From Lawsonibacter sp. (GTDB lineage: Bacteria; Bacillota; Clostridia; Oscillospirales; Oscillospiraceae), in the NCBI GenBank assembly GCA_022793355.1, contig JAAWCR010000111.1, forward strand, positions 1 through 35,970: a stretch of 35,970 bases of DNA, written 5' to 3'. Shown here piece by piece: positions 28,762 to 35,970 of the stretch; the stretch's first letter is position 1; every line of letters starts with the position of its first letter. The translations under genes were made by a program, and so were the position numbers. The notes under the pieces are model-generated. The model was not told where the DNA came from. It was given only the letters and a program-made list of their open reading frames with translations, and ran no database searches.

Positions 28762-29757
28762 TCACTGAGAATCCGGCTCTTTTTCCGGCTTTTTTTTCTG
28801 GCGCACACGGCTTAGCGGATTGGCCCGGGCGGCAGTACGCAAATCCTCGTTGTCCACATGGGTGTAAATTTGGGTGGTGTTCAGGTGGTCGTGGCCCAGC
28901 ACCTCCTGAAGGGTGCGTACATCCACACCGTTCTGGAGCATCAGGGTGGCGGCGGTGTGTCGCAGCTTGTGGGAGGAGTATTGGCTGCTGTCCAGTCCGG
29001 CTGCGGCCAGATGCTTTTTGACCAGCTTGTGGACCGCAGCCGTAGAGATACGCCTCCGGTTCTGAAGGGTAACAAAGAGGGCGTTTTGGTCTACCAGCGT
29101 CAAGGAATCCCGTTCAGTGAGCCAGTTCTCCAGCGCCCGCTGACAGGCGTCGTTGAGATACAGCATTCGCTCCTTGTTACCCTTGCCCAGCACTCGGAGC
29201 TGATCGCCCCGAACATCTGTTTTGTTCAACCCTACCAGTTCAGAAATACGTAGACCGCAATTGAGGAACAGTGCCAGAATGCAATAGTCCCGGCTGAAGT
29301 TTTTACCGTCAACACTGTCCAAAAGCTCCAAACTTTCTTCTAAATTCAGATATTTGGGTAAGGATTTTTTCAATCTGGGCGAATCCAAGTCCTGGACCGG
29401 GTTGACTTCAAGTAGCTTGGCCTTATTGGTAAGATACTTGTAGAACGACCGGATAGTGGCAACTTTGCGGGCTCGCGAGGTGTTGTTCAGCCCACGGTCT
29501 CGAGACAGATAGTTCATATAGGAATAGATATCCGTCAGTGTGATATTTCGGGCCAGATCCAAGTCAACGTCGGCGATGGAGATATCATCCAGCGGAACAT
29601 CCTTGGAAACCAACTGTTTACTCTGCTTGAGGTAGCGGAAAAAATTCCGGAGGTCTAAATAGTATTCGTCAACCGTCCGCCGTGAGTGACCTTGGATGGT
29701 CTCATGGTAAACAAGGAAATCCCGAAGGATAGGCGGTGCTTCCGTACGGTAGTCCAT
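28762..29757 (-). CDS. Chromosomal Xer-family tyrosine recombinase (clostridial XerC/XerS-like)
   Basis: LRDFLVYHETIQGHS..TVDEYYLDLR, RDYCILALFLNCGLRISEL, GKGNKER, HKLRHTAAT and LGH...NTTQIY. Confidence 0.9.
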   Translation of the reverse strand: MDYRTEAPPILRDFLVYHETIQGHSRRTVDEYYLDLRNFFRYLKQSKQLVSKDVPLDDISIADVDLDLARNITLTDIYSYMNYLSRDRGLNNTSRARKVATIRSFYKYLTNKAKLLEVNPVQDLDSPRLKKSLPKYLNLEESLELLDSVDGKNFSRDYCILALFLNCGLRISELVGLNKTDVRGDQLRVLGKGNKERMLYLNDACQRALENWLTERDSLTLVDQNALFVTLQNRRRISTAAVHKLVKKHLAAAGLDSSQYSSHKLRHTAATLMLQNGVDVRTLQEVLGHDHLNTTQIYTHVDNEDLRTAARANPLSRVRQKKKPEKEPDSQ

Positions 29758-29808
29758 ATAAGGTAAATGGCTTGTCAGACGCAAAATGAGTGGTTCTACC
29801 TCCACTCA

Positions 29809-29836
29809 GGTCAACAAAATTTTTATTTTGTTGACC
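29809..29836. other. Palindromic 11-6-11 dif-like recombination site (candidate attL)
   Basis: GGTCAACAAAA-TTTTTA-TTTTGTTGACC has perfect inverted arms (extendable with TCA/TGA) and lies ~50 bp upstream of the xer gene. Confidence 0.7.
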
Positions 29837-29948
29837 TGACATAATGCGCTAATCTGAGTGCCATCGTTCCTCCCCTCTGCTTTCGCAGTAATTTGGAACT
29901 AAGTATAGCACGCTTTTCCCGTCAGGTCAACAAAACATGAAGTTACCG
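29826..29948. repeat. Direct repeat copy 1 (~123 bp) containing a sigma-A promoter facing xer
   Basis: Aligns by hand to 35708-35829 at 93/123 identity. Minus-strand TTGACC (29925-29930)-N17-TATACT (29902-29907). Confidence 0.85.
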
Positions 29949-30797
29949 TTACCGACTTCGACACCGTTTTACCTTCCGAATTAGTTTCCGCCAAAACCTC
30001 ACCAGGATGAATGGCCGCCGTGGAGCTGCCAGGACGGCTAGTTCCCGCTGGCGGACCCGCAGCACCGAGATCATATCCAGCACCAGGGCTTTTTTCAGCT
30101 CTTGGTCATCCTCGGCGGCGACGCCGTTCCCCGGGGCCCCACCGCTTGCGCGGTTCCCCCCGGCACAGACATCGCCGCCTGCGGTGACCATATCTGAAAA
30201 CAGCTTGTAGCTATCATAGACCTCAGCGTAACGTTTCCGGTACGGGAAAACTGTCTGCCCCAGCTTCAGGCGATTCCCACCGTACCAGTATTGAATGGCA
30301 ATAAACCAAGTACGCCCCAATGTGAGTAAGGACAGCATGCCACCTCCAAAGCCGTAATTGTTCAGCTTGCGGTGTTTTATCTCCTCCTCCACCAGTGATC
30401 TAATCTGCCGGTCCAGCATCCGGTCGGACTGCGTGATTAAGATCACGTTGAAGCCCAGCTTGCGGTGCTGGGCAAAGAAAGTTACCCAGGCGTTGCGGTC
30501 CTTCCGTCCGAAGTCCCGGCAGTTAAAGATGATCTGGCACTCGTCTATCACCACCAGCGTCTGGCCTTCTTTTCCGATCTTATGCCGGTCCAGTGCATAG
30601 GCCACCAGACGCTCCGCCGTCAGCTCCGAGTTGTCCCAATACTCCACATGGGCTTTCAGCTTCTTTCCGACAAAACCTTCATTGACCGGGAAATTGCAGA
30701 TCAGTCCCCTATCCCGCTTCATCCACCGGACGATATCTTTTGCCGCATGAAAACTCTTACCGCTGCCGGGAGTACCGGTATACAGTTGGATACTCAT
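29949..30797 (-). CDS. Zot/pI-like morphogenesis ATPase
   Basis: IQLYTGTPGSGKSFHA (Walker A), LVVIDECQ (Walker B) and QHRKLGFNVILITQ..LDRQIR. Confidence 0.92.
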   Translation of the reverse strand: MSIQLYTGTPGSGKSFHAAKDIVRWMKRDRGLICNFPVNEGFVGKKLKAHVEYWDNSELTAERLVAYALDRHKIGKEGQTLVVIDECQIIFNCRDFGRKDRNAWVTFFAQHRKLGFNVILITQSDRMLDRQIRSLVEEEIKHRKLNNYGFGGGMLSLLTLGRTWFIAIQYWYGGNRLKLGQTVFPYRKRYAEVYDSYKLFSDMVTAGGDVCAGGNRASGGAPGNGVAAEDDQELKKALVLDMISVLRVRQRELAVLAAPRRPFILVRFWRKLIRKVKRCRSR

Positions 30798-31036
30798 TCT
30801 ATCACCTTCACCCAGCGGAACACGATCTGGTACACATAATAGACCGCCACGCAGGACAGCCAAGTTTCCAGGATACCCACAAAGGTGTTGATAGGGATAA
30901 ACCAGTTCACCATTTGCAGCCACTCGTAAAACTCCGAGCTGGCCATGTCGTCCAGGATCACGAAGGGACTGGTGGGAAACAGCTCCACCACGCCTACCGC
31001 GAAGGACACCAGGGCGTCAGACAGCACGTCCCACAT
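30794..31036 (-). CDS. pVI-like minor virion protein
   Basis: Hydrophobic 80 aa with FPTSPF..VNWFIP..RWVKVIE; ATGA-coupled to Zot. Confidence 0.75.
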   Translation of the reverse strand: MWDVLSDALVSFAVGVVELFPTSPFVILDDMASSEFYEWLQMVNWFIPINTFVGILETWLSCVAVYYVYQIVFRWVKVIE

Positions 31037-31054
31037 GTAAAGCCCCTCCCCTGT

Positions 31055-32386
31055 TCACGCCGTCCATATCAGGCGTTTGGTGGCCCCGACCAGCATCAGG
31101 CAGAAGCCTATGGTGCTTGTCCACCGGCTGATCTGGCCGATGATTGCGTACTCAGCAAAATCCAACACAATGGTTGTATCACCCTGCCACTCCCCTACTC
31201 TGTGTTCTATCGGCTGCATAAAGTCCACCTTGAACCGTGGAGCTTTCGCCGGTGCGGCCAGGAGCTGTACAGCCCTGAAAAAGTCCCAGGGGATGGAGAA
31301 AGGGAAACGGCTTATCAGCGCCTGTCCCAGAGCGGGTAAGCCCAGGTTGTCTACATCGGTTATCTCCCCCGCTGGCGGGTCTACCACAGCCTCTCCCGCA
31401 ACTTCCATGGTTGACGTCAGCTCACCGGCCAGCACATCCTCCAGCACCCCTTGAAGAACCAGGTCAAGGTCCATCGTCGCCGCTGCGCCTACGTCCAGCG
31501 CTATCCCCTGTTCTGCTGCTATGCCATCTGGAATATAGGACATGGAAGGAGCACGGTCAATGGAAAGGGATTCATCAGATGAGACTACAGCACCAAAATT
31601 AAAGTCACGCAGAGAAACAGCAGAACAATACTTGAAAACCCCATTAGAATCCCAAAACAGAAAAAGAGTATCATCATAAAAAGAAAAGCAAAAATTAGTG
31701 GCCCCCCAAAATTTATTACCGGTAATTTTAGTGCCCTGAGGATTAAAAAAAGCAACCCAATAGGAAGAATCACCTGCTGGGTCATTAGCAAAATAATAAC
31801 CACTAGAGAAAACGATTGGAGAATCAATAGGAAAATGAAAAATTGTTCCTAGAGAAACAACAGTAGAATTATTGCCATTATAATTCATTGAAGAAAGGTA
31901 CAATTTGCTACCATCTTTCAATGTAATATAATCATCAGCATCATAATAAACTCGATTCTCCCCCGCCTGCGCCGCATACTTCCCCACAACCCACTGTGCA
32001 AAGGAAACAAATTCCTCGGTAAGGGACCGCCCCAGGAGGAGCTTTCCCGCCATAACTGTGAGGTCCCAAACGCCGCCCAGCCAGTCCTGGATGGAGATAC
32101 CGCCAAGTTCCGTGTCAAGGAATTCCTGAAGCAGCCGCTGCACAGAGCTGACCAGGGCATCCTTGTCCATCCCCTTTGTGATAAACGGCAGGCCGCAGGC
32201 TCCCAGGTAAGCCGCCGCCACCGAGGCCACAGCGGTCATGGACAGCTCCGCCACCAGGGCCTCCGCCCTTTGCTGGGGGAGCATCAAGCCCAGCACCAGC
32301 GAGAAGCACACCAGCCAGCAGCCCAGCCGCATGAGCAGCTTGTCCCGCCGGGCGGCGAGGAACCGTATTACCAGATTCATTTCCAT
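31055..32386 (-). CDS. pIII-like attachment/minor coat protein
   Basis: Signal peptide (..RAEA), C-terminal RFPFSIPWD motif and TM anchor; lies between the coat gene and pVI. Confidence 0.78.
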   Translation of the reverse strand: MEMNLVIRFLAARRDKLLMRLGCWLVCFSLVLGLMLPQQRAEALVAELSMTAVASVAAAYLGACGLPFITKGMDKDALVSSVQRLLQEFLDTELGGISIQDWLGGVWDLTVMAGKLLLGRSLTEEFVSFAQWVVGKYAAQAGENRVYYDADDYITLKDGSKLYLSSMNYNGNNSTVVSLGTIFHFPIDSPIVFSSGYYFANDPAGDSSYWVAFFNPQGTKITGNKFWGATNFCFSFYDDTLFLFWDSNGVFKYCSAVSLRDFNFGAVVSSDESLSIDRAPSMSYIPDGIAAEQGIALDVGAAATMDLDLVLQGVLEDVLAGELTSTMEVAGEAVVDPPAGEITDVDNLGLPALGQALISRFPFSIPWDFFRAVQLLAAPAKAPRFKVDFMQPIEHRVGEWQGDTTIVLDFAEYAIIGQISRWTSTIGFCLMLVGATKRLIWTA

Positions 32387-32400
32387 ACCTCCCTATGAAG

Positions 32401-32424
32401 TGAGCCCCGGAGAACCGGGGCTCA
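32401..32424 (-). terminator. Hairpin after the major coat gene
   Basis: TGAGCCCCGG-AGAA-CCGGGGCTCA between the coat gene and pIII, as in Ff phages. Confidence 0.65.
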
Positions 32425-32435
32425 TTTGCGCTGTG

Positions 32436-32717
32436 TTACTGACCCATGGATTTAAACCAGCTCATAGCCTTCCGGGACAGCCAGATCACGCCGGCCACAC
32501 CGACGGCAATGGGCACGATCACGGCAATCATGCTCATGGCGTCTGACGCCATGCTCTGGAAACCGCTCTGGAACGCCGAGATCACCGTGGCGGACGTGCC
32601 AGAAGCACCAGACGACGCACCCTCAGCCGCAAAAGCGGAGATGCACATAACCGACAAGATCATAGACACTCCCAACAGCACAGCCAGCCGTTTCTTGATA
32701 GACTTCATCCTTTTCAC
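32436..32717 (-). CDS. Major coat protein (pVIII-like)
   Basis: Signal peptide ending SAFA|AEG, amphipathic segment, one TM (IAVIVPIAVGVAGVIWL) and basic C-terminus SRKAMSWFKSMGQ. Confidence 0.85.
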   Translation of the reverse strand: MKRMKSIKKRLAVLLGVSMILSVMCISAFAAEGASSGASGTSATVISAFQSGFQSMASDAMSMIAVIVPIAVGVAGVIWLSRKAMSWFKSMGQ

Positions 32718-32878
32718 CTCCCCATGATTTTAATCAATGCCTTAAAGCAGCCGACCAAAAGACCAGCCGCCAGGACAACGAAACAGGCGGATGTCATGCC
32801 TATCACCAGGACCTCGGGCACGGCATCCAGAATATCCAGGCTGATTGTGTACAGCTCTGCTACTTCCAAAAACTCCAT
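32714..32878 (-). CDS. Small TM protein (pVII/pIX-like)
   Basis: 54 aa with an acidic N-terminus, a single TM and basic end; overlaps the coat gene start. Confidence 0.65.
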   Translation of the reverse strand: MEFLEVAELYTISLDILDAVPEVLVIGMTSACFVVLAAGLLVGCFKALIKIMGR

Positions 32879-32879
32879 A

Positions 32880-33107
32880 CTACACCTGCCATATCCGGGA
32901 GAACATAAAACCAATTGCGCAGCCTAACACTACGCCAATGAGTAGCACAACAGCCAGAAACACTAGGCTGACGTCAGCATGAAGCTGTTCTAATCCGCAG
33001 TTGGCTTTGTCCAAGGACTGCTGCATAACTTCCAAGGCCTCCAACACCGGTGTCAGGTCTGTTGGTGATACCAGGGTTTCATAGATCACGCTGCCGCTCT
33101 CCTCCAT
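32880..33107 (-). CDS. Small TM protein (pVII/pIX-like)
   Basis: AAGGAGG RBS; 75 aa with a coiled segment and C-terminal TM. Confidence 0.65.
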   Translation of the reverse strand: MEESGSVIYETLVSPTDLTPVLEALEVMQQSLDKANCGLEQLHADVSLVFLAVVLLIGVVLGCAIGFMFSRIWQV

Positions 33108-33975
33108 GGGCCTCTCCTCCTTCCAGCCACCCACTGATGGTTGTTTGCTCTATCTCTGCATTGGACAACAGTACCGGGATGTCCTCCGGATACTCCAACG
33201 GGGGCAGCTCACCGTCTACCGGGATGTATTCCATCCAAAAGGACCAATCTACATCCCGTACCCAGCCGGTGGAACAGAATGTGCCATCATGCTCCAAATA
33301 GGCATCCAGGCTTGCATAGGATTGATACACATATCCCATGGGCATGGCACGGGCCAGGCCGATGGAGCAGCGGTACATATGTACCCCATAGTCCGAAACA
33401 CACCGGGCCAGGTCCTTCGACACATACTTGGTGATATACCCCGCTGCAAGCTCCGGGTCCTTGATATAGGCCAGGGAGCAGAAACCGAATTTTTTCTGAT
33501 ACTCCGGCCAATTCAGATAACCTTTGGCTACCAGGTCTTGGGGTTCCAGGCCAGGGATGAACAGGCGCAGCCGGTCTTGCGGGATACCCTTGACAAAGCC
33601 GTGGATATGCCACGCTCCATCCTCATGGAGCTCCGGGACAAACAGGTATTGGAGGTTGCAACCGTATTTCTTCCGGTAATCCCGCAGCCATTGGGTGAAG
33701 GACTTATAAAATTCCTTCAGGTGGTAACGATTATATTTAGCTGGGTCTATGGTGCCAGTAAAGAAAAAGTCCCAATCATTGCAGAAAGCCACCTGGAAGA
33801 TCACCGACCGGGCCCGGCAGATCGCCTGGGAAAGTTTTTCCTCCGGAGTGCCCTCCCCTTCCTCACGTTTGGGTGGCAGATGGGGAAACAGCGCCCGCTT
33901 GAACCGGATAAGCTCATACACGCCATCCCTGTAAAACTTGACCGAATATCTTGGAGCCAGTACGCCAGACATCAT
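33079..33975 (-). CDS. HUH rolling-circle replication initiator
   Basis: Motif I FFTGT, motif II ELHEDGAWHIHG, motif III YITKYVSK. Confidence 0.9.
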   Translation of the reverse strand: MMSGVLAPRYSVKFYRDGVYELIRFKRALFPHLPPKREEGEGTPEEKLSQAICRARSVIFQVAFCNDWDFFFTGTIDPAKYNRYHLKEFYKSFTQWLRDYRKKYGCNLQYLFVPELHEDGAWHIHGFVKGIPQDRLRLFIPGLEPQDLVAKGYLNWPEYQKKFGFCSLAYIKDPELAAGYITKYVSKDLARCVSDYGVHMYRCSIGLARAMPMGYVYQSYASLDAYLEHDGTFCSTGWVRDVDWSFWMEYIPVDGELPPLEYPEDIPVLLSNAEIEQTTISGWLEGGEAHGGERQRDL

Positions 33976-34159
33976 TTTTTATGCCCCTTCCCGACTTACG
34001 TTACCTTGTCAAGTGCCCTCGTCGGTAACCCCTGCGGCTACCGAAAAAGGCACTAAACTCTGCGTGGGGAAAGGGACGTCTCCCGACGTGCCTGTACTTT
34101 GTAACACAACGGAGGCGGCGGAGCGGAGCTGATCAACGACGCTGCCATGCTAAGCTGTG

Positions 34160-34468
34160 TTACGGTTTCTTCCGCTGGAACATGTACTTGGGGACCTCTA
34201 CCCCCTGCTCCCGGCACAGGTCGATCAGGAGGTTGTTCAGATAAGACTCATCTGCAAAGAGATTTTCGGCTTTTATACGGATTGCCTTCTCCGCCTCCAG
34301 CTCGCTTTCCAGCAGCCGGACACGGTTTTTTAGGACCTGAACCTCCACCGTATCGCAGACGCTGACCGAGAGCTCCAACCGCCCCTCCCCTACCCTCTCC
34401 AACACTTTGGACAGAGCCGGGACCAGGGACGTAAACTCAGACCGGGACAATGTCTGCGACACGTCCAT
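34160..34468 (-). CDS. Phage hypothetical coiled-coil protein
   Basis: ORF between SSB and Rep; heptad pattern LKNRVRLLESELEAEK. The start is uncertain. Confidence 0.55.
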   Translation of the reverse strand: MDVSQTLSRSEFTSLVPALSKVLERVGEGRLELSVSVCDTVEVQVLKNRVRLLESELEAEKAIRIKAENLFADESYLNNLLIDLCREQGVEVPKYMFQRKKP

Positions 34469-34673
34469 ACTTGTTGTACCGAATCTCGCACTGGTTGCCA
34501 ATCTCAGGCATAAAGGTCAAATTCATAAACCGGTTGGAGCTTATGAAAACGCGATCTGTTGCCTCGCCGTCAACCTCTGGGTCCTCATACGTGAAGTACA
34601 GATTCATTCCATTGACCTGCGCACCATCGGAGCCCTTGAAATCTACGTTCTTTGTTCCTACAAGTGTGTACAT
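34437..34673 (-). CDS. pV-like single-stranded DNA-binding protein
   Basis: AAAGGAG RBS; 78-aa beta-rich MYTLVGTKNVDFKGSDG..NG..LY..YNKYGRV; size and position match. Confidence 0.65.
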   Translation of the reverse strand: MYTLVGTKNVDFKGSDGAQVNGMNLYFTYEDPEVDGEATDRVFISSNRFMNLTFMPEIGNQCEIRYNKYGRVADIVPV

Positions 34674-34692
34674 GAATACCGCTCCTTTCTTT

Positions 34693-34899
34693 TTATTTAT
34701 CTTCACCCTCAAAGGGATTAGACACCGAAACATCAGGAAGAATTTTGTCCATAAGGTGAAAGATAAACTTTCCTCTAGACCAACAAGCTTAACGGGCCAG
34801 TTCATCTAACCGTTCCCGCATCTCCACCGGACAGTTAAAAGACACCGAGCACCATTTAGGAGAAGATTCACATTCATCTACTTTCAGAACAAACGGCAT
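34693..34899 (-). pseudogene. Ribbon-helix-helix regulator with an in-frame TAA
   Basis: GGGAGG RBS; MPFVLKVDECESSPKWCSVSFNCPVEMRERLDELAR*ACWSRGKFIFHLMDKILPDVSVSNPFEGEDK; stop at 34789-34791. Confidence 0.6.
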
Positions 34900-34985
34900 C
34901 TATATACCCTCCCTTTAAATTCGGGGGAGAGGCAAGGAAGATATAAGCAGCCCCTCCCCCATGCCCTAGTGCCAACCCGGGCAGC

Positions 34986-35062
34986 AACAGACCTATAAGT
35001 CTGTTACTTAATCAAAACTATAACAGACTTATAGGTCCGCTGTCAAGAGGGACTTATAAGTC
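34986..35062. promoter_or_regulatory. Phage switch: three palindromic operators and a leftward sigma-A promoter
   Basis: GACCTATAAGTC (34990-35001), GACTTATAGGTC (35026-35037), GACTTATAAGTC (35051-35062); minus-strand TTGACA (35041-35046)-N18-TATAGT (35017-35022). Confidence 0.8.
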
Positions 35063-35094
35063 CTATGGTAAATTTATTCTGAGGTGACTTTACA

Positions 35095-35313
35095 ATGAAC
35101 ATTGGTGATAGGCTAAAAGACACGAGGATCGACCACGATCATGAACAGAAAGACACCGCAGAAATATTACAAATATCGGAAAAGCAAGTTATGCGCTACG
35201 AGAAGGACCGCCAAGAAATGGGCATAAGAAAACTAAGAGATTTTTGTCTTTACTACCAAGTTTCCGCCGACTACATTCTAGGCCTCCCCCGTGGCCTGGA
35301 CTGGCCACGGTGA
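35095..35313 (+). CDS. XRE-family HTH prophage repressor
   Basis: RLKDTRID...Q..AEILQIS..QVMRYE...L.DFCLYYQVSADYILG; divergent from the phage operon. Confidence 0.88.
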   Translation: MNIGDRLKDTRIDHDHEQKDTAEILQISEKQVMRYEKDRQEMGIRKLRDFCLYYQVSADYILGLPRGLDWPR

Positions 35314-35599
35314 ACCATCGCCAGCGGGCGGGACGGTGGATTCTGTTTTGAAGGGTGCCCCCTGGCCAGCTGGGCCCGACTGCAAACCCGGACCCTCGCT
35401 CTGATGGGCGACCGGCTGCGGGTATCGGGGGCTGTCTTGATGCGACCCGGACCTATGGGTCCTCTCGCATATTACCTCTGCCCCTTGCTTGCGCCGAAAC
35501 CAACCCGCAAGGGGACTTGCAAAAAGATACCTTCAGTAAGCCAGATCGGCCCAGGCCTACCAGGTAATCGCGCAAGACAACTGTCATTTCCATGCAAAA

Positions 35600-35718
35600 C
35601 GGGGAGCGATCACCGCTCCCCGCTTCTCTTTCAAAAGTTATAGAAAAGGCATCGTGTGCGCCAGCACACGCAACAAAACCTAAAAATATTGGTACAATAT
35701 TTTTAGGTTTTGTTGACC
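35600..35718. repeat. Three consecutive hairpins ending in the candidate attR
   Basis: CGGGGAGCG/CGCTCCCCG (35600-35622), CGTGTGC/GCACACG (35653-35670) and a perfect 21-bp inverted repeat 35671-35691/35695-35715 that overlaps the arm TTTTGTTGACC (35708-35718). Confidence 0.8.
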
Positions 35719-35829
35719 TAGTAGCGTACACTATTCTGCGGAAAGCCTGTCCTCCTTCCTGCTTTCGCAGTAGTTTTGAACCAGTATAGCACGGTTTCCC
35801 CGGCAGGTCAACAAAACATGATTTTACCG
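35708..35829. repeat. Direct repeat copy 2 (probable original host xer promoter)
   Basis: Minus-strand TTGACC (35806-35811)-N17-TATACT (35783-35788); homologous to 29826-29948. Confidence 0.85.
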
Positions 35830-35970
35830 CACGGAAATCAATTTTGCAAAATTGGATTCAAAGAGATAAAATAGGAAATATGAGAAAGAACATAGTAGAA
35901 TATTTTGATGAAGTAGAAACAAGGCGGGAATACAAGGGATATTTTTGTAGTATTCCAGAAGCAATCAGCA
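35830..35970 (+). mobile_element. Left end of a probable ISAs1-family IS with partial transposase (ATG 35880)
   Basis: MRKNIVEYFDEVETRREYKGYFCSIPEAIS.. resembles the N-terminus of clostridial ISAs1-type transposases; candidate terminal repeat CACGGAAATCAATTTTGC at 35830; AT-rich; truncated by the window end. Confidence 0.55.

What the first reader, a model, noticed from the sequence alone, without database searches (positions are those of the whole stretch)
29809..29836. Perfectly palindromic 11-6-11 dif-like site just upstream of a clostridial Xer gene: possible single-recombinase (XerS/XerH-style) system
Seen: GGTCAACAAAA-TTTTTA-TTTTGTTGACC ~50 bp upstream of the recombinase ORF. Established: dif sites are 11-6-11, and streptococcal XerS acts alone on difSL located next to its own gene. 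As I recall it, the difSL arm is TTTTCTTGACA, close to TTTTGTTGACC here. Inference: identical arms imply a homomeric recombinase rather than XerC/XerD, even though a separate xerD lies 10 kb away. This may be the chromosome dimer-resolution site of this lineage. The mostly plus-strand genes at 9.5-28 kb would fit a replichore ending here.
Basis: partly seen in the sequence, partly recalled or inferred. Interest (0 to 1): 0.82.

Follow-up and report, generated by a model that had tools for sequence, protein, structure and literature searches.

The report
Clostridial dif site hijacked by inovirus
This 28-base palindrome, conserved across many gut Clostridia opposite the replication origin, is likely the site where the single recombinase encoded beside it separates fused daughter chromosomes, and here a 5.9-kb filamentous phage sits in it, carrying a predicted spare promoter that would keep the recombinase gene switched on.

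Summary
The palindrome is real (11-6-11, extending to 14-6-14), 51 bp upstream of an intact Xer-type gene. Its pattern occurs once per genome in 60 of 151 Clostridia genomes (control 3 of 151), with compensatory arm changes. The gene lies 0.46-0.52 of the circle from dnaA in 8 of 8 closed genomes, and the site is 3 and 10 kb from the GC-skew peak in the two tested. Arm bases track residues in this recombinase's two recognition helices, while XerD's helix is invariant; 18 of 60 site-bearing genomes have no XerD hit. Best reading: the chromosome dif of a one-enzyme system, in a clade apart from CodV, RipX and XerS, so XerS-like in logic but not an XerS member. No recombination assay exists. I found no paper on it in 9 searches; this scan noted the same system before on other Clostridia DNA (8 notes).

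The parts
29809..29836 (.). dif-like core, 11-6-11, identical arms, directional spacer (TAAAAA on the xer-sense strand); perfect arms reach 29806-29839; also the xer-proximal prophage junction
28762..29757 (-). Clostridial Xer-type tyrosine recombinase, 331 aa, catalytic R170, K192, H263, R266, H289, Y298 invariant in 8 aligned orthologues; E31 and A240/H243 are the predicted site-reading residues
29826..35707 (-). Integrase-less filamentous (inovirus-like) prophage, 5,882 bp between two 12-bp arm repeats
   Evidence: empty-site joint 29825 to 35708 in run X13
29902..29930 (-). Phage-borne sigma-70-like promoter (TTGACC-17-TATACT) pointing through the site into xer; its -35 lies in an extra half-site (29922-29935)
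   Evidence: phage side shown by the joint and by L073, L085
29949..30797 (-). Inovirus morphogenesis ATPase (pI / Zot family)
   Evidence: PF05707 E 4e-20; phrog_1675 M13 protein I E 7.5e-17
31055..33134 (-). Block of small and membrane-type ORFs in the position of inovirus coat and adsorption genes; no family hit, role inferred from position
33079..33975 (-). Rolling-circle replication initiator
   Evidence: PF23343 E 2.6e-11; phrog_3419
35095..35313 (+). HTH repressor, RstR-like (below the family cut-off)
   Evidence: NF041951 E 2e-9
35671..35715 (.). 21-3-21 perfect hairpin whose base is an arm duplex; predicted single-stranded attP structure; spans the far junction
   Evidence: z -8.0; one compensatory pair change in L073
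35708..35829 (-). Host arm plus the host copy of the xer promoter/leader (TTGACC-17-TATACT at about 35811-35783, half-site 35806-35816), 77.5% identical to the phage copy
18779..19666 (+). XerD/RipX orthologue; candidate partner in the rival reading, likely not part of this system

Best explanation
The palindrome is likely the chromosome dimer-resolution (dif) site of this Oscillospiraceae bacterium, recombined by the neighbouring Xer protein alone, and an integrase-less filamentous phage lies inserted at one of its arms. Shown: sequence, conservation, terminus position, one copy per genome, covariation with the neighbouring protein, prophage ends and an empty-site joint. Inferred: one monomer binds each identical arm, four monomers synapse two sites and swap strands at the edges of the 6-bp spacer, whose fixed T...A direction sets resolution rather than inversion; an FtsK/SpoIIIE translocase brings the sites together (by analogy with XerS and XerH); because the site lies between promoter and gene, binding would also repress xer. 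The phage would integrate through host Xer using a folded single-stranded attP, leave an intact site next to xer, and supply its own copy of the xer promoter in place of the host promoter that insertion pushes 5.9 kb away. My odds: dif 0.88, this protein reads it 0.9, no second recombinase needed 0.8, phage uses host Xer 0.85, promoter replacement functional 0.6.
For: Once per genome in 60 of 151 class genomes, control 3 of 151. Site found within 700 bp upstream in 121 of 158 loci against 5 in a downstream control, and 61 of 80 named GTDB loci against 2 (loci overlap in part and are kin). Gene 0.455-0.52 of the circle from dnaA in 8 of 8 single-contig genomes. Cumulative-skew peak 10.0 kb (G014) and 3.1 kb (G009) from the site in 200-kb stretches. 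Residue 31 is E with T at arm position 4 in both arms in 103 of 104 loci, and 17 of 17 non-E proteins have a non-T there; 4 of 4 independent pairs go the same way. R240 goes with G7 in 22 of 22 against 1 of 99; position 240 aligns with the Q of XerD's RQ motif. XerD's RQGFWK is unchanged in 13 of 13 although host arms differ. 18 of 60 site-bearing genomes have no XerD-model hit at E 1e-70; in 4 of 5 checked (97-99% complete) the only XerD-like hit is this Xer. Site is uncoupled from the gene start in 20 of 58 genomes. FtsK-gamma domain present in the own assembly. Prophage: no integrase, 12-bp shared arm, empty-site joint; 8 of 12 related prophages lie at the site beside xer; attP folds as a 21-bp hairpin (window, L073) or a CTX-like forked hairpin (L076, L077).
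Against: No binding, cleavage or recombination data. The 4 independent pairs give p 0.125, and the residues were picked after the fact as top covarying columns. XerD is present here and in 42 of 60 site-bearing genomes, and B. subtilis RipX can bind both dif arms (PMC5357621 section 10). No site was found near the orthologue in 37 of 158 loci, including closed genomes G033 and G148, and 42 of 151 genomes lack the orthologue at E 1e-60. Only 9 of 20 same-genus loci show a consensus promoter upstream, so xer may often be read through from a neighbour. The empty-site joint rests on one contig with 30 letters on its short side. The first phage base after the arm (C) differs from the host's (T), which simple homology-checked strand exchange does not explain. 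A second, imperfect site lies elsewhere in the genome. The own assembly is 79% complete, so a canonical dif or CodV could be missing from it.
Confidence: 0.74

Rival explanations
1. The site is the dif, but XerD/RipX acts on it, alone or as a mixed tetramer with the neighbouring Xer.
For: XerD over its cut-off 10 kb away and in 42 of 60 site-bearing genomes. Arms resemble a RipX-type arm at 7-8 of 11 positions. RipX binds both arms of B. subtilis dif (PMC5357621).
Against: Site and Xer persist with no XerD-like second protein in G059, G120, G147, G116. XerD's recognition motif is invariant in 13 of 13 while arms change, and the neighbouring Xer's residues follow the arms. Both arms change together.
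Confidence: 0.1
2. The palindrome is only an autoregulatory operator of xer and a phage attachment site, with dimer resolution done elsewhere or not by Xer.
For: It lies between promoter and start codon here and within 300 bp upstream in 38 of 58 genomes; an extra half-site overlaps the -35. No site found near the gene in G033 and G148.
Against: Site is downstream, 0.4-12 kb upstream or on another contig in 20 of 58 genomes and still single-copy. Fixed 6-bp spacer with conserved direction. Terminus position in 8 of 8 closed genomes. An intact site is kept after phage insertion.
Confidence: 0.08
3. The true dif is a RipX-type site read by XerD, and this site plus gene is a second, domesticated mobile-element module parked at the terminus.
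For: In 7 of 151 genomes (control 3) a symmetric RipX-arm palindrome exists, in 4 of them 7-22 bp behind the xer orthologue, and all 7 have XerD.
Against: None in the own assembly or in 200 kb round the G014 site, only weak matches in G009. A canonical pattern with 2 mismatches hits 44 of 151 genomes against about 36 for the control (counted by eye) and never exactly. The predicted canonical C. acetobutylicum dif excised a marker no better than a random repeat, 36% against 37% (PMC10312008 passages; my reading, not the authors').
Confidence: 0.06
4. The palindrome is an RNA hairpin (terminator or leader structure) with no DNA-recombination role.
For: Perfect palindromes of this size are common in the assembly, 31 with a 6-bp spacer, and arms covary as a stem would.
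Against: A/T-rich inner stem, no U tail, not called by the terminator scan; spacer always 6; prophage ends fall on the arm edge; covariation with a DNA-binding protein.
Confidence: 0.02

Closest known systems
XerS/difSL of Streptococcus and Lactococcus (PMC1914069 sections 5 and 11 read; PMC2965235 passages)
   Same: One recombinase gene with the site directly upstream, at the terminus; inner AAAA-N6-TTTT geometry; site between promoter and gene, which Le Bourgeois et al. proposed would autoregulate xer or block phage insertion.
   Different: 28-bp site with identical arms against a 31-bp asymmetric site; protein 331 aa, 143 bits against a cut-off of 267, own clade, joined to the XerS-family rows only at support 85; a RipX orthologue is often kept; phages do insert here.
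XerH/difH of Helicobacter and Campylobacter (PMC5241119 passages; PMC5357621 passages)
   Same: Single enzyme, 6-bp centre, inner 5 bp read by the N-terminal helices and outer arm by a catalytic-domain helix, matching where covariation falls here.
   Different: difH arms are unequal and this orders strand exchange; here arms are identical, so any order must come from the spacer or flanks. XerH is a weaker match (E 5.6e-19) than E. coli XerD (E 2.7e-34).
XerL/dif of Legionellales (PMC9765430 passages)
   Same: A missed single-recombinase dif system exposed by a mobile element that integrates in it; palindromic, terminus-located, variable flanking genes.
   Different: XerL was tested experimentally; relationship of the proteins not tested here.
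CodV/RipX at B. subtilis dif; XerC/XerD (PMC5357621 section 10; PMC3025954 passages and supplement 2 rows)
   Same: 11-6-11 layout, terminus, arm similar to the RipX/XerD arm.
   Different: No distinct XerC arm; protein below both cut-offs and outside the CodV (trmFO-xerC-hslVU) and RipX clades. Kono et al. failed for two Clostridium genomes and placed four C. botulinum sites 137-176 degrees from the skew shift.
IMEX filamentous phages CTXphi, VGJphi, TLCphi (PMC5357621 passages and section 11 part 2)
   Same: No integrase, pI/Zot, rolling-circle Rep, RstR-like repressor, insertion at dif with a functional dif left; forked-hairpin attP in L076/L077; arm-plus-spacer repeats in L074, L080, L083.
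   Different: Gram-positive host and a one-enzyme symmetric site; a short perfect hairpin attP in this phage; a phage-borne copy of the recombinase promoter. The Enterocloster and global inovirus papers (PMC10061712, PMC6813254; term searches) have no occurrence of 'xer'.

Membership tests
XerS/difSL | Site directly upstream of the recombinase gene | tested here: met
   51 bp here; within 300 bp in 38 of 58 genomes
XerS/difSL | 31-bp asymmetric difSL sequence | tested here: not met
   28-bp symmetric core; 6-9 of 11 identity to the difSL right arm depending on lineage
XerS/difSL | XerS protein family (about 356 aa, NF003462 cut-off, clade) | tested here: not met
   331 aa, 142.8 bits against 267; separate clade; the XerS rows in the tree were NF003462 members from an unnamed family, not streptococcal XerS itself
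XerS/difSL | One recombinase sufficient, FtsK-dependent | not testable with these tools
   Indirect only: genomes lacking XerD; FtsK-gamma present
XerH/difH | XerH protein and unequal arms | tested here: not met
   Weak match to 5jjv; arms identical; XerH not in my tree
XerCD (CodV/RipX)/dif | 11-6-11 site, single copy, at the terminus | tested here: met
   one imperfect second site in 5 of 61 same-genus genomes in the tyrS-type form
XerCD (CodV/RipX)/dif | Distinct XerC and XerD arms | tested here: not met
   Arms identical and co-changing
XerCD (CodV/RipX)/dif | A CodV/XerC orthologue | tested here: not met
   229 bits against 335; outside the clade holding the trmFO/hslVU-linked proteins; only two recombinases in the 79%-complete assembly
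IMEX (Xer-exploiting element) | No own integrase; ends at a dif arm; intact dif left | tested here: met
IMEX (Xer-exploiting element) | dif-mimicking attP (folded single strand or duplex) | tested here: inconclusive
   One arm duplex rebuilt by a 21-bp hairpin here, second arm truncated; both arms rebuilt in L076/L077
IMEX (Xer-exploiting element) | Integration needs host Xer | not testable with these tools
   needs an xer mutant
Inoviridae | pI ATPase, rolling-circle Rep, 4-12 kb genome | tested here: met
   5.9 kb
Inoviridae | Filamentous virions, circular single-stranded genome | not testable with these tools
   no circular joint in 8 of 8 contig sets laid, which cannot show absence

The most novel reading that the evidence does not exclude
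Most Clostridia resolve chromosome dimers with their own one-enzyme Xer system on a fully symmetric site, with a readable residue-to-base code (31 to base 4, 240 to base 7, 243 to base 8). Gut inoviruses hijack it through folded single-stranded attP sites and carry a replacement xer promoter, defeating the 'dif in front of its gene blocks insertion' guard proposed for XerS in 2007. In some families a second symmetric site for RipX flanks the same gene, giving two homomeric systems side by side.
Probability: 0.45. Interest if true: 0.83.

Novelty: new variant of a known kind. Interest (0 to 1): 0.7.

Why it matters
How Clostridia resolve chromosome dimers is open: profile searches failed or gave sites far from the terminus (PMC3025954), and a predicted canonical site did no better than a random repeat in C. 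acetobutylicum (PMC10312008). This gives a concrete site, enzyme and predicted specificity residues to test, a fully symmetric natural dif for asking how strand order is set without arm asymmetry, a likely neutral integration site and marker-excision tool for gut Clostridia, and the first case I could find of Xer-exploiting filamentous phages in Gram-positive hosts, with a direct test of the 2007 insertion-guard hypothesis.

Tried and rejected
IMG/VR scans: the pI protein found no relative; the site pattern found one contig (L072) with a different spacer and no related genes. Canonical dif pattern: near noise. GC skew within the window flips near 28-29 kb but was set aside because of the prophage. 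The careful tree did not finish; quick trees were used, without XerH, XerL, XerA or streptococcal XerS. H/Y243 and R240 covariation have only 1 and 2 well-supported independent pairs. The idea that the extra half-site 88 bp away is the attP partner was not supported by folding, which prefers the 21-bp hairpin. The element at the window's right end gave no Pfam hit. Nine literature searches found no description of this site or system; subscription papers are not covered, Table 1 and Fig. 1 of PMC1914069 and the Carnoy and Roten paper (listing only) were not seen, and supplements of the inovirus papers were not read. No structure prediction or complex job was run.

Full report
Observation. The sequence at 29809-29836 is as described; the perfect arms extend to 14 bp. 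It ends 51 bp before the ATG (29757) of a 331-aa tyrosine recombinase on the minus strand, whose catalytic residues are invariant in 8 aligned orthologues. Such palindromes are not rare in themselves (31 with a 6-bp spacer in the assembly). The closest named relatives of the protein are Flintibacter, Lawsonibacter and Pseudoflavonifractor (Oscillospiraceae) at 75-91%.

Conservation. All 20 same-genus loci examined (own included; 30 of 37 hits were returned as loci) carry the site 33-114 bp upstream. The orthologue is found in 109 of 151 class genomes at E 1e-60. The pattern TNNACAAAAT-N4-ATTTTGTNNA occurs in 60 of 151, exactly once each, against 3 of 151 for the reversed control. 58 of the 60 have the orthologue: 38 within 300 bp upstream, 9 further upstream (0.4-12 kb), 4 downstream, 7 on another contig. 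A looser test (at least 9 of 11 pairs, AAA-N6-TTT) finds a site within 700 bp upstream in 121 of 158 loci against 5 downstream, and in 61 of 80 named loci against 2. The test demands pairing, so the pair counts are partly built in, but 39 distinct arm pairs appear, with all four pair types at outer position 8. The spacer is always 6 bp, TAAAAA in 78 of 121.

Position. In 8 of 8 single-contig genomes the gene lies 0.455-0.52 of the circle from dnaA (exact lengths in 45, 51; two lengths rounded). A site was found in 6 of these 8, not in G033 or G148. In 200-kb stretches centred on the site, cumulative GC skew peaks 10.0 kb (G014) and 3.1 kb (G009) from it. A Bacillus-type pattern with 2 mismatches finds nothing in the own assembly (79% complete) and is near noise class-wide.

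Which enzyme. The protein is below the cut-offs for XerC, XerD, XerA and XerS. In quick trees it forms its own clade (support 95-98), apart from CodV-type proteins (trmFO/hslVU context) and RipX-type proteins (deoB context), which include the window's XerD; the link to XerS-family rows is weak (85). Among 121 loci the columns that covary most with arm bases are residue 31 (N-terminal helix) and 240/243; 240 aligns with the Q of XerD's RQ motif, and in XerH the N-terminal helices read the inner 5 bp while a catalytic-domain helix lies on the outer arm (PMC5241119 passages). E31 goes with T at position 4 of both arms in 103 of 104 loci, and 17 of 17 non-E proteins have another base there; on a tree without those columns 4 of 4 independent pairs agree, p 0.125. 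These columns were chosen after the fact. XerD's RQGFWK is the same in 13 of 13. 18 of 60 site-bearing genomes have no XerD-model hit at E 1e-70; of 5 checked with the XerD protein, 4 give only the site-linked Xer and the fifth nothing above 34% identity; 3 of 5 checked with PF00589 have a single match. An FtsK-gamma domain is present in the own assembly. Against this, XerD is present in 42 of 60, and RipX can bind both arms of B. subtilis dif.

The prophage. Right of the site lie a pI/Zot ATPase, small ORFs, a rolling-circle Rep and an HTH repressor, with no integrase. A 135-bp repeat of 77.5% identity (29814-29948, 35694-35829) bounds it; each copy has an arm, a leader, TTGACC-17-TATACT and a half-site over the -35. 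One contig of run X13 joins 29825 to 35708 with 12 shared letters (short side 30), the predicted empty site; so the right copy is the host's and the left the phage's. The prophage is present in runs of several mouse-gut studies. pI homologues occur in 11 of 400 other family genomes and one more in the genus search; 8 of these 12 lie just upstream of xer with the site between, 2 more have arm-bearing ends without xer in the stretch fetched, 2 have neither. The joined ends fold into a 21-bp hairpin here and in L073 (one compensatory change), and into a forked hairpin rebuilding both arms in L076 and L077, as described for CTXphi; L074, L078, L080 and L083 instead share arm plus spacer at both ends. 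Where the site lies 24-79 bp from xer, 6 of 7 prophages carry a sigma-70-like promoter on the phage side; the 2 with a reversed spacer and a longer gap carry none, and one of them has a promoter between site and gene. Le Bourgeois et al. proposed that a dif between promoter and gene blocks insertion (PMC1914069 section 11); these phages look like the counter-move. Caveats: only 9 of 20 same-genus loci show a consensus promoter, no RNA data, and the C/T mismatch at the first exchanged base is unexplained.

Mechanism. Shown: site, conservation, position, covariation, prophage ends. Inferred from the Xer family: a homotetramer synapses two sites, exchanges strands at the spacer edges, the directional spacer enforces resolution, a translocase licenses it, binding represses xer, and the phage integrates by one host-Xer strand exchange at the arm edge followed by replication.

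Literature. Nine searches found no description. Kono et al. failed for C. perfringens and C. beijerinckii and placed four C. botulinum sites 137-176 degrees from the skew shift (passages and 19 supplement rows). PMC10312008 (passages) used a predicted canonical site that did no better than a random repeat. PMC8138268, PMC10061712, PMC6813254 and bioRxiv 10.64898/2026.07.08.737213 were read as term passages and add nothing on this site. The scan's own notes report the same system on other Clostridia DNA; they are not independent support, and my reading was fixed before I saw them.

Verdict. Real, likely the missing Clostridia dif with its own single recombinase; works like XerS/XerH/XerL, not a member of XerS or XerH; new variant of a known kind; interest 0.70.

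Noticed in passing
G000:C115:2803-2830; G009:C1:350990-351015 (L110): Second, imperfect site (one arm TTTTCTTGACC, different spacer) between tyrS and an HTH gene in both genomes, 49 kb from the main site in G009; similar in G483, G589, G627. Role unknown.
   Followed up: partly
L132 (G136), L142 (G110), L143 (G162), G186:C27:1336: xer orthologue flanked by two palindromes: a variant site upstream and a symmetric RipX-arm 11-6-11 site 7-22 bp downstream; all 7 genomes with the RipX-type palindrome have XerD, and the two f24 genomes without XerD lack it.
   Followed up: partly
window 29795-29808 and orthologous loci: A purine-rich GGAGG-type tail follows the arm on one side in most loci, even when the site is far from or downstream of the gene; a possible source of asymmetry.
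   Followed up: no
L078 (G414:C1:349500-363000): At least six degenerate arm-plus-spacer copies in 13.5 kb round an inovirus, like an array of successive integrations, plus a 72-bp tandem repeat.
   Followed up: no
L002-L020 upstream flanks: Genes upstream of the site vary far more than those downstream of xer (19 against 102 similar pairs of 190); other alleles diverge at 29838-29839 in metagenome contigs: an insertion hotspot.
   Followed up: partly
window 35830-35970: Multi-copy element starting right after the host promoter copy (about tenfold depth, many contigs diverge at 35829/35830); the ORF start looks like an ISAs1-type transposase from recall, no Pfam hit.
   Followed up: partly
window 35671-35681; L195: The 3' arm of the phage hairpin (TTTTGTTGCGT on the minus strand) equals the chromosomal arm of another Oscillospiraceae host, L195, hinting at a former host.
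   Followed up: no
L126, L128: XerS-family proteins over the NF003462 cut-off in large-genome Bacillota outside Streptococcaceae, with near-symmetric RipX-type dif-like sites 924 bp upstream or 177 bp downstream.
   Followed up: no
window 29787-29808 (-): Terminator-like hairpin between the site and the xer start codon, not evident in relatives.
   Followed up: no
window 34990-35037: Inverted repeat between the divergent Rep-side genes and the HTH repressor, likely the phage operator.
   Followed up: no
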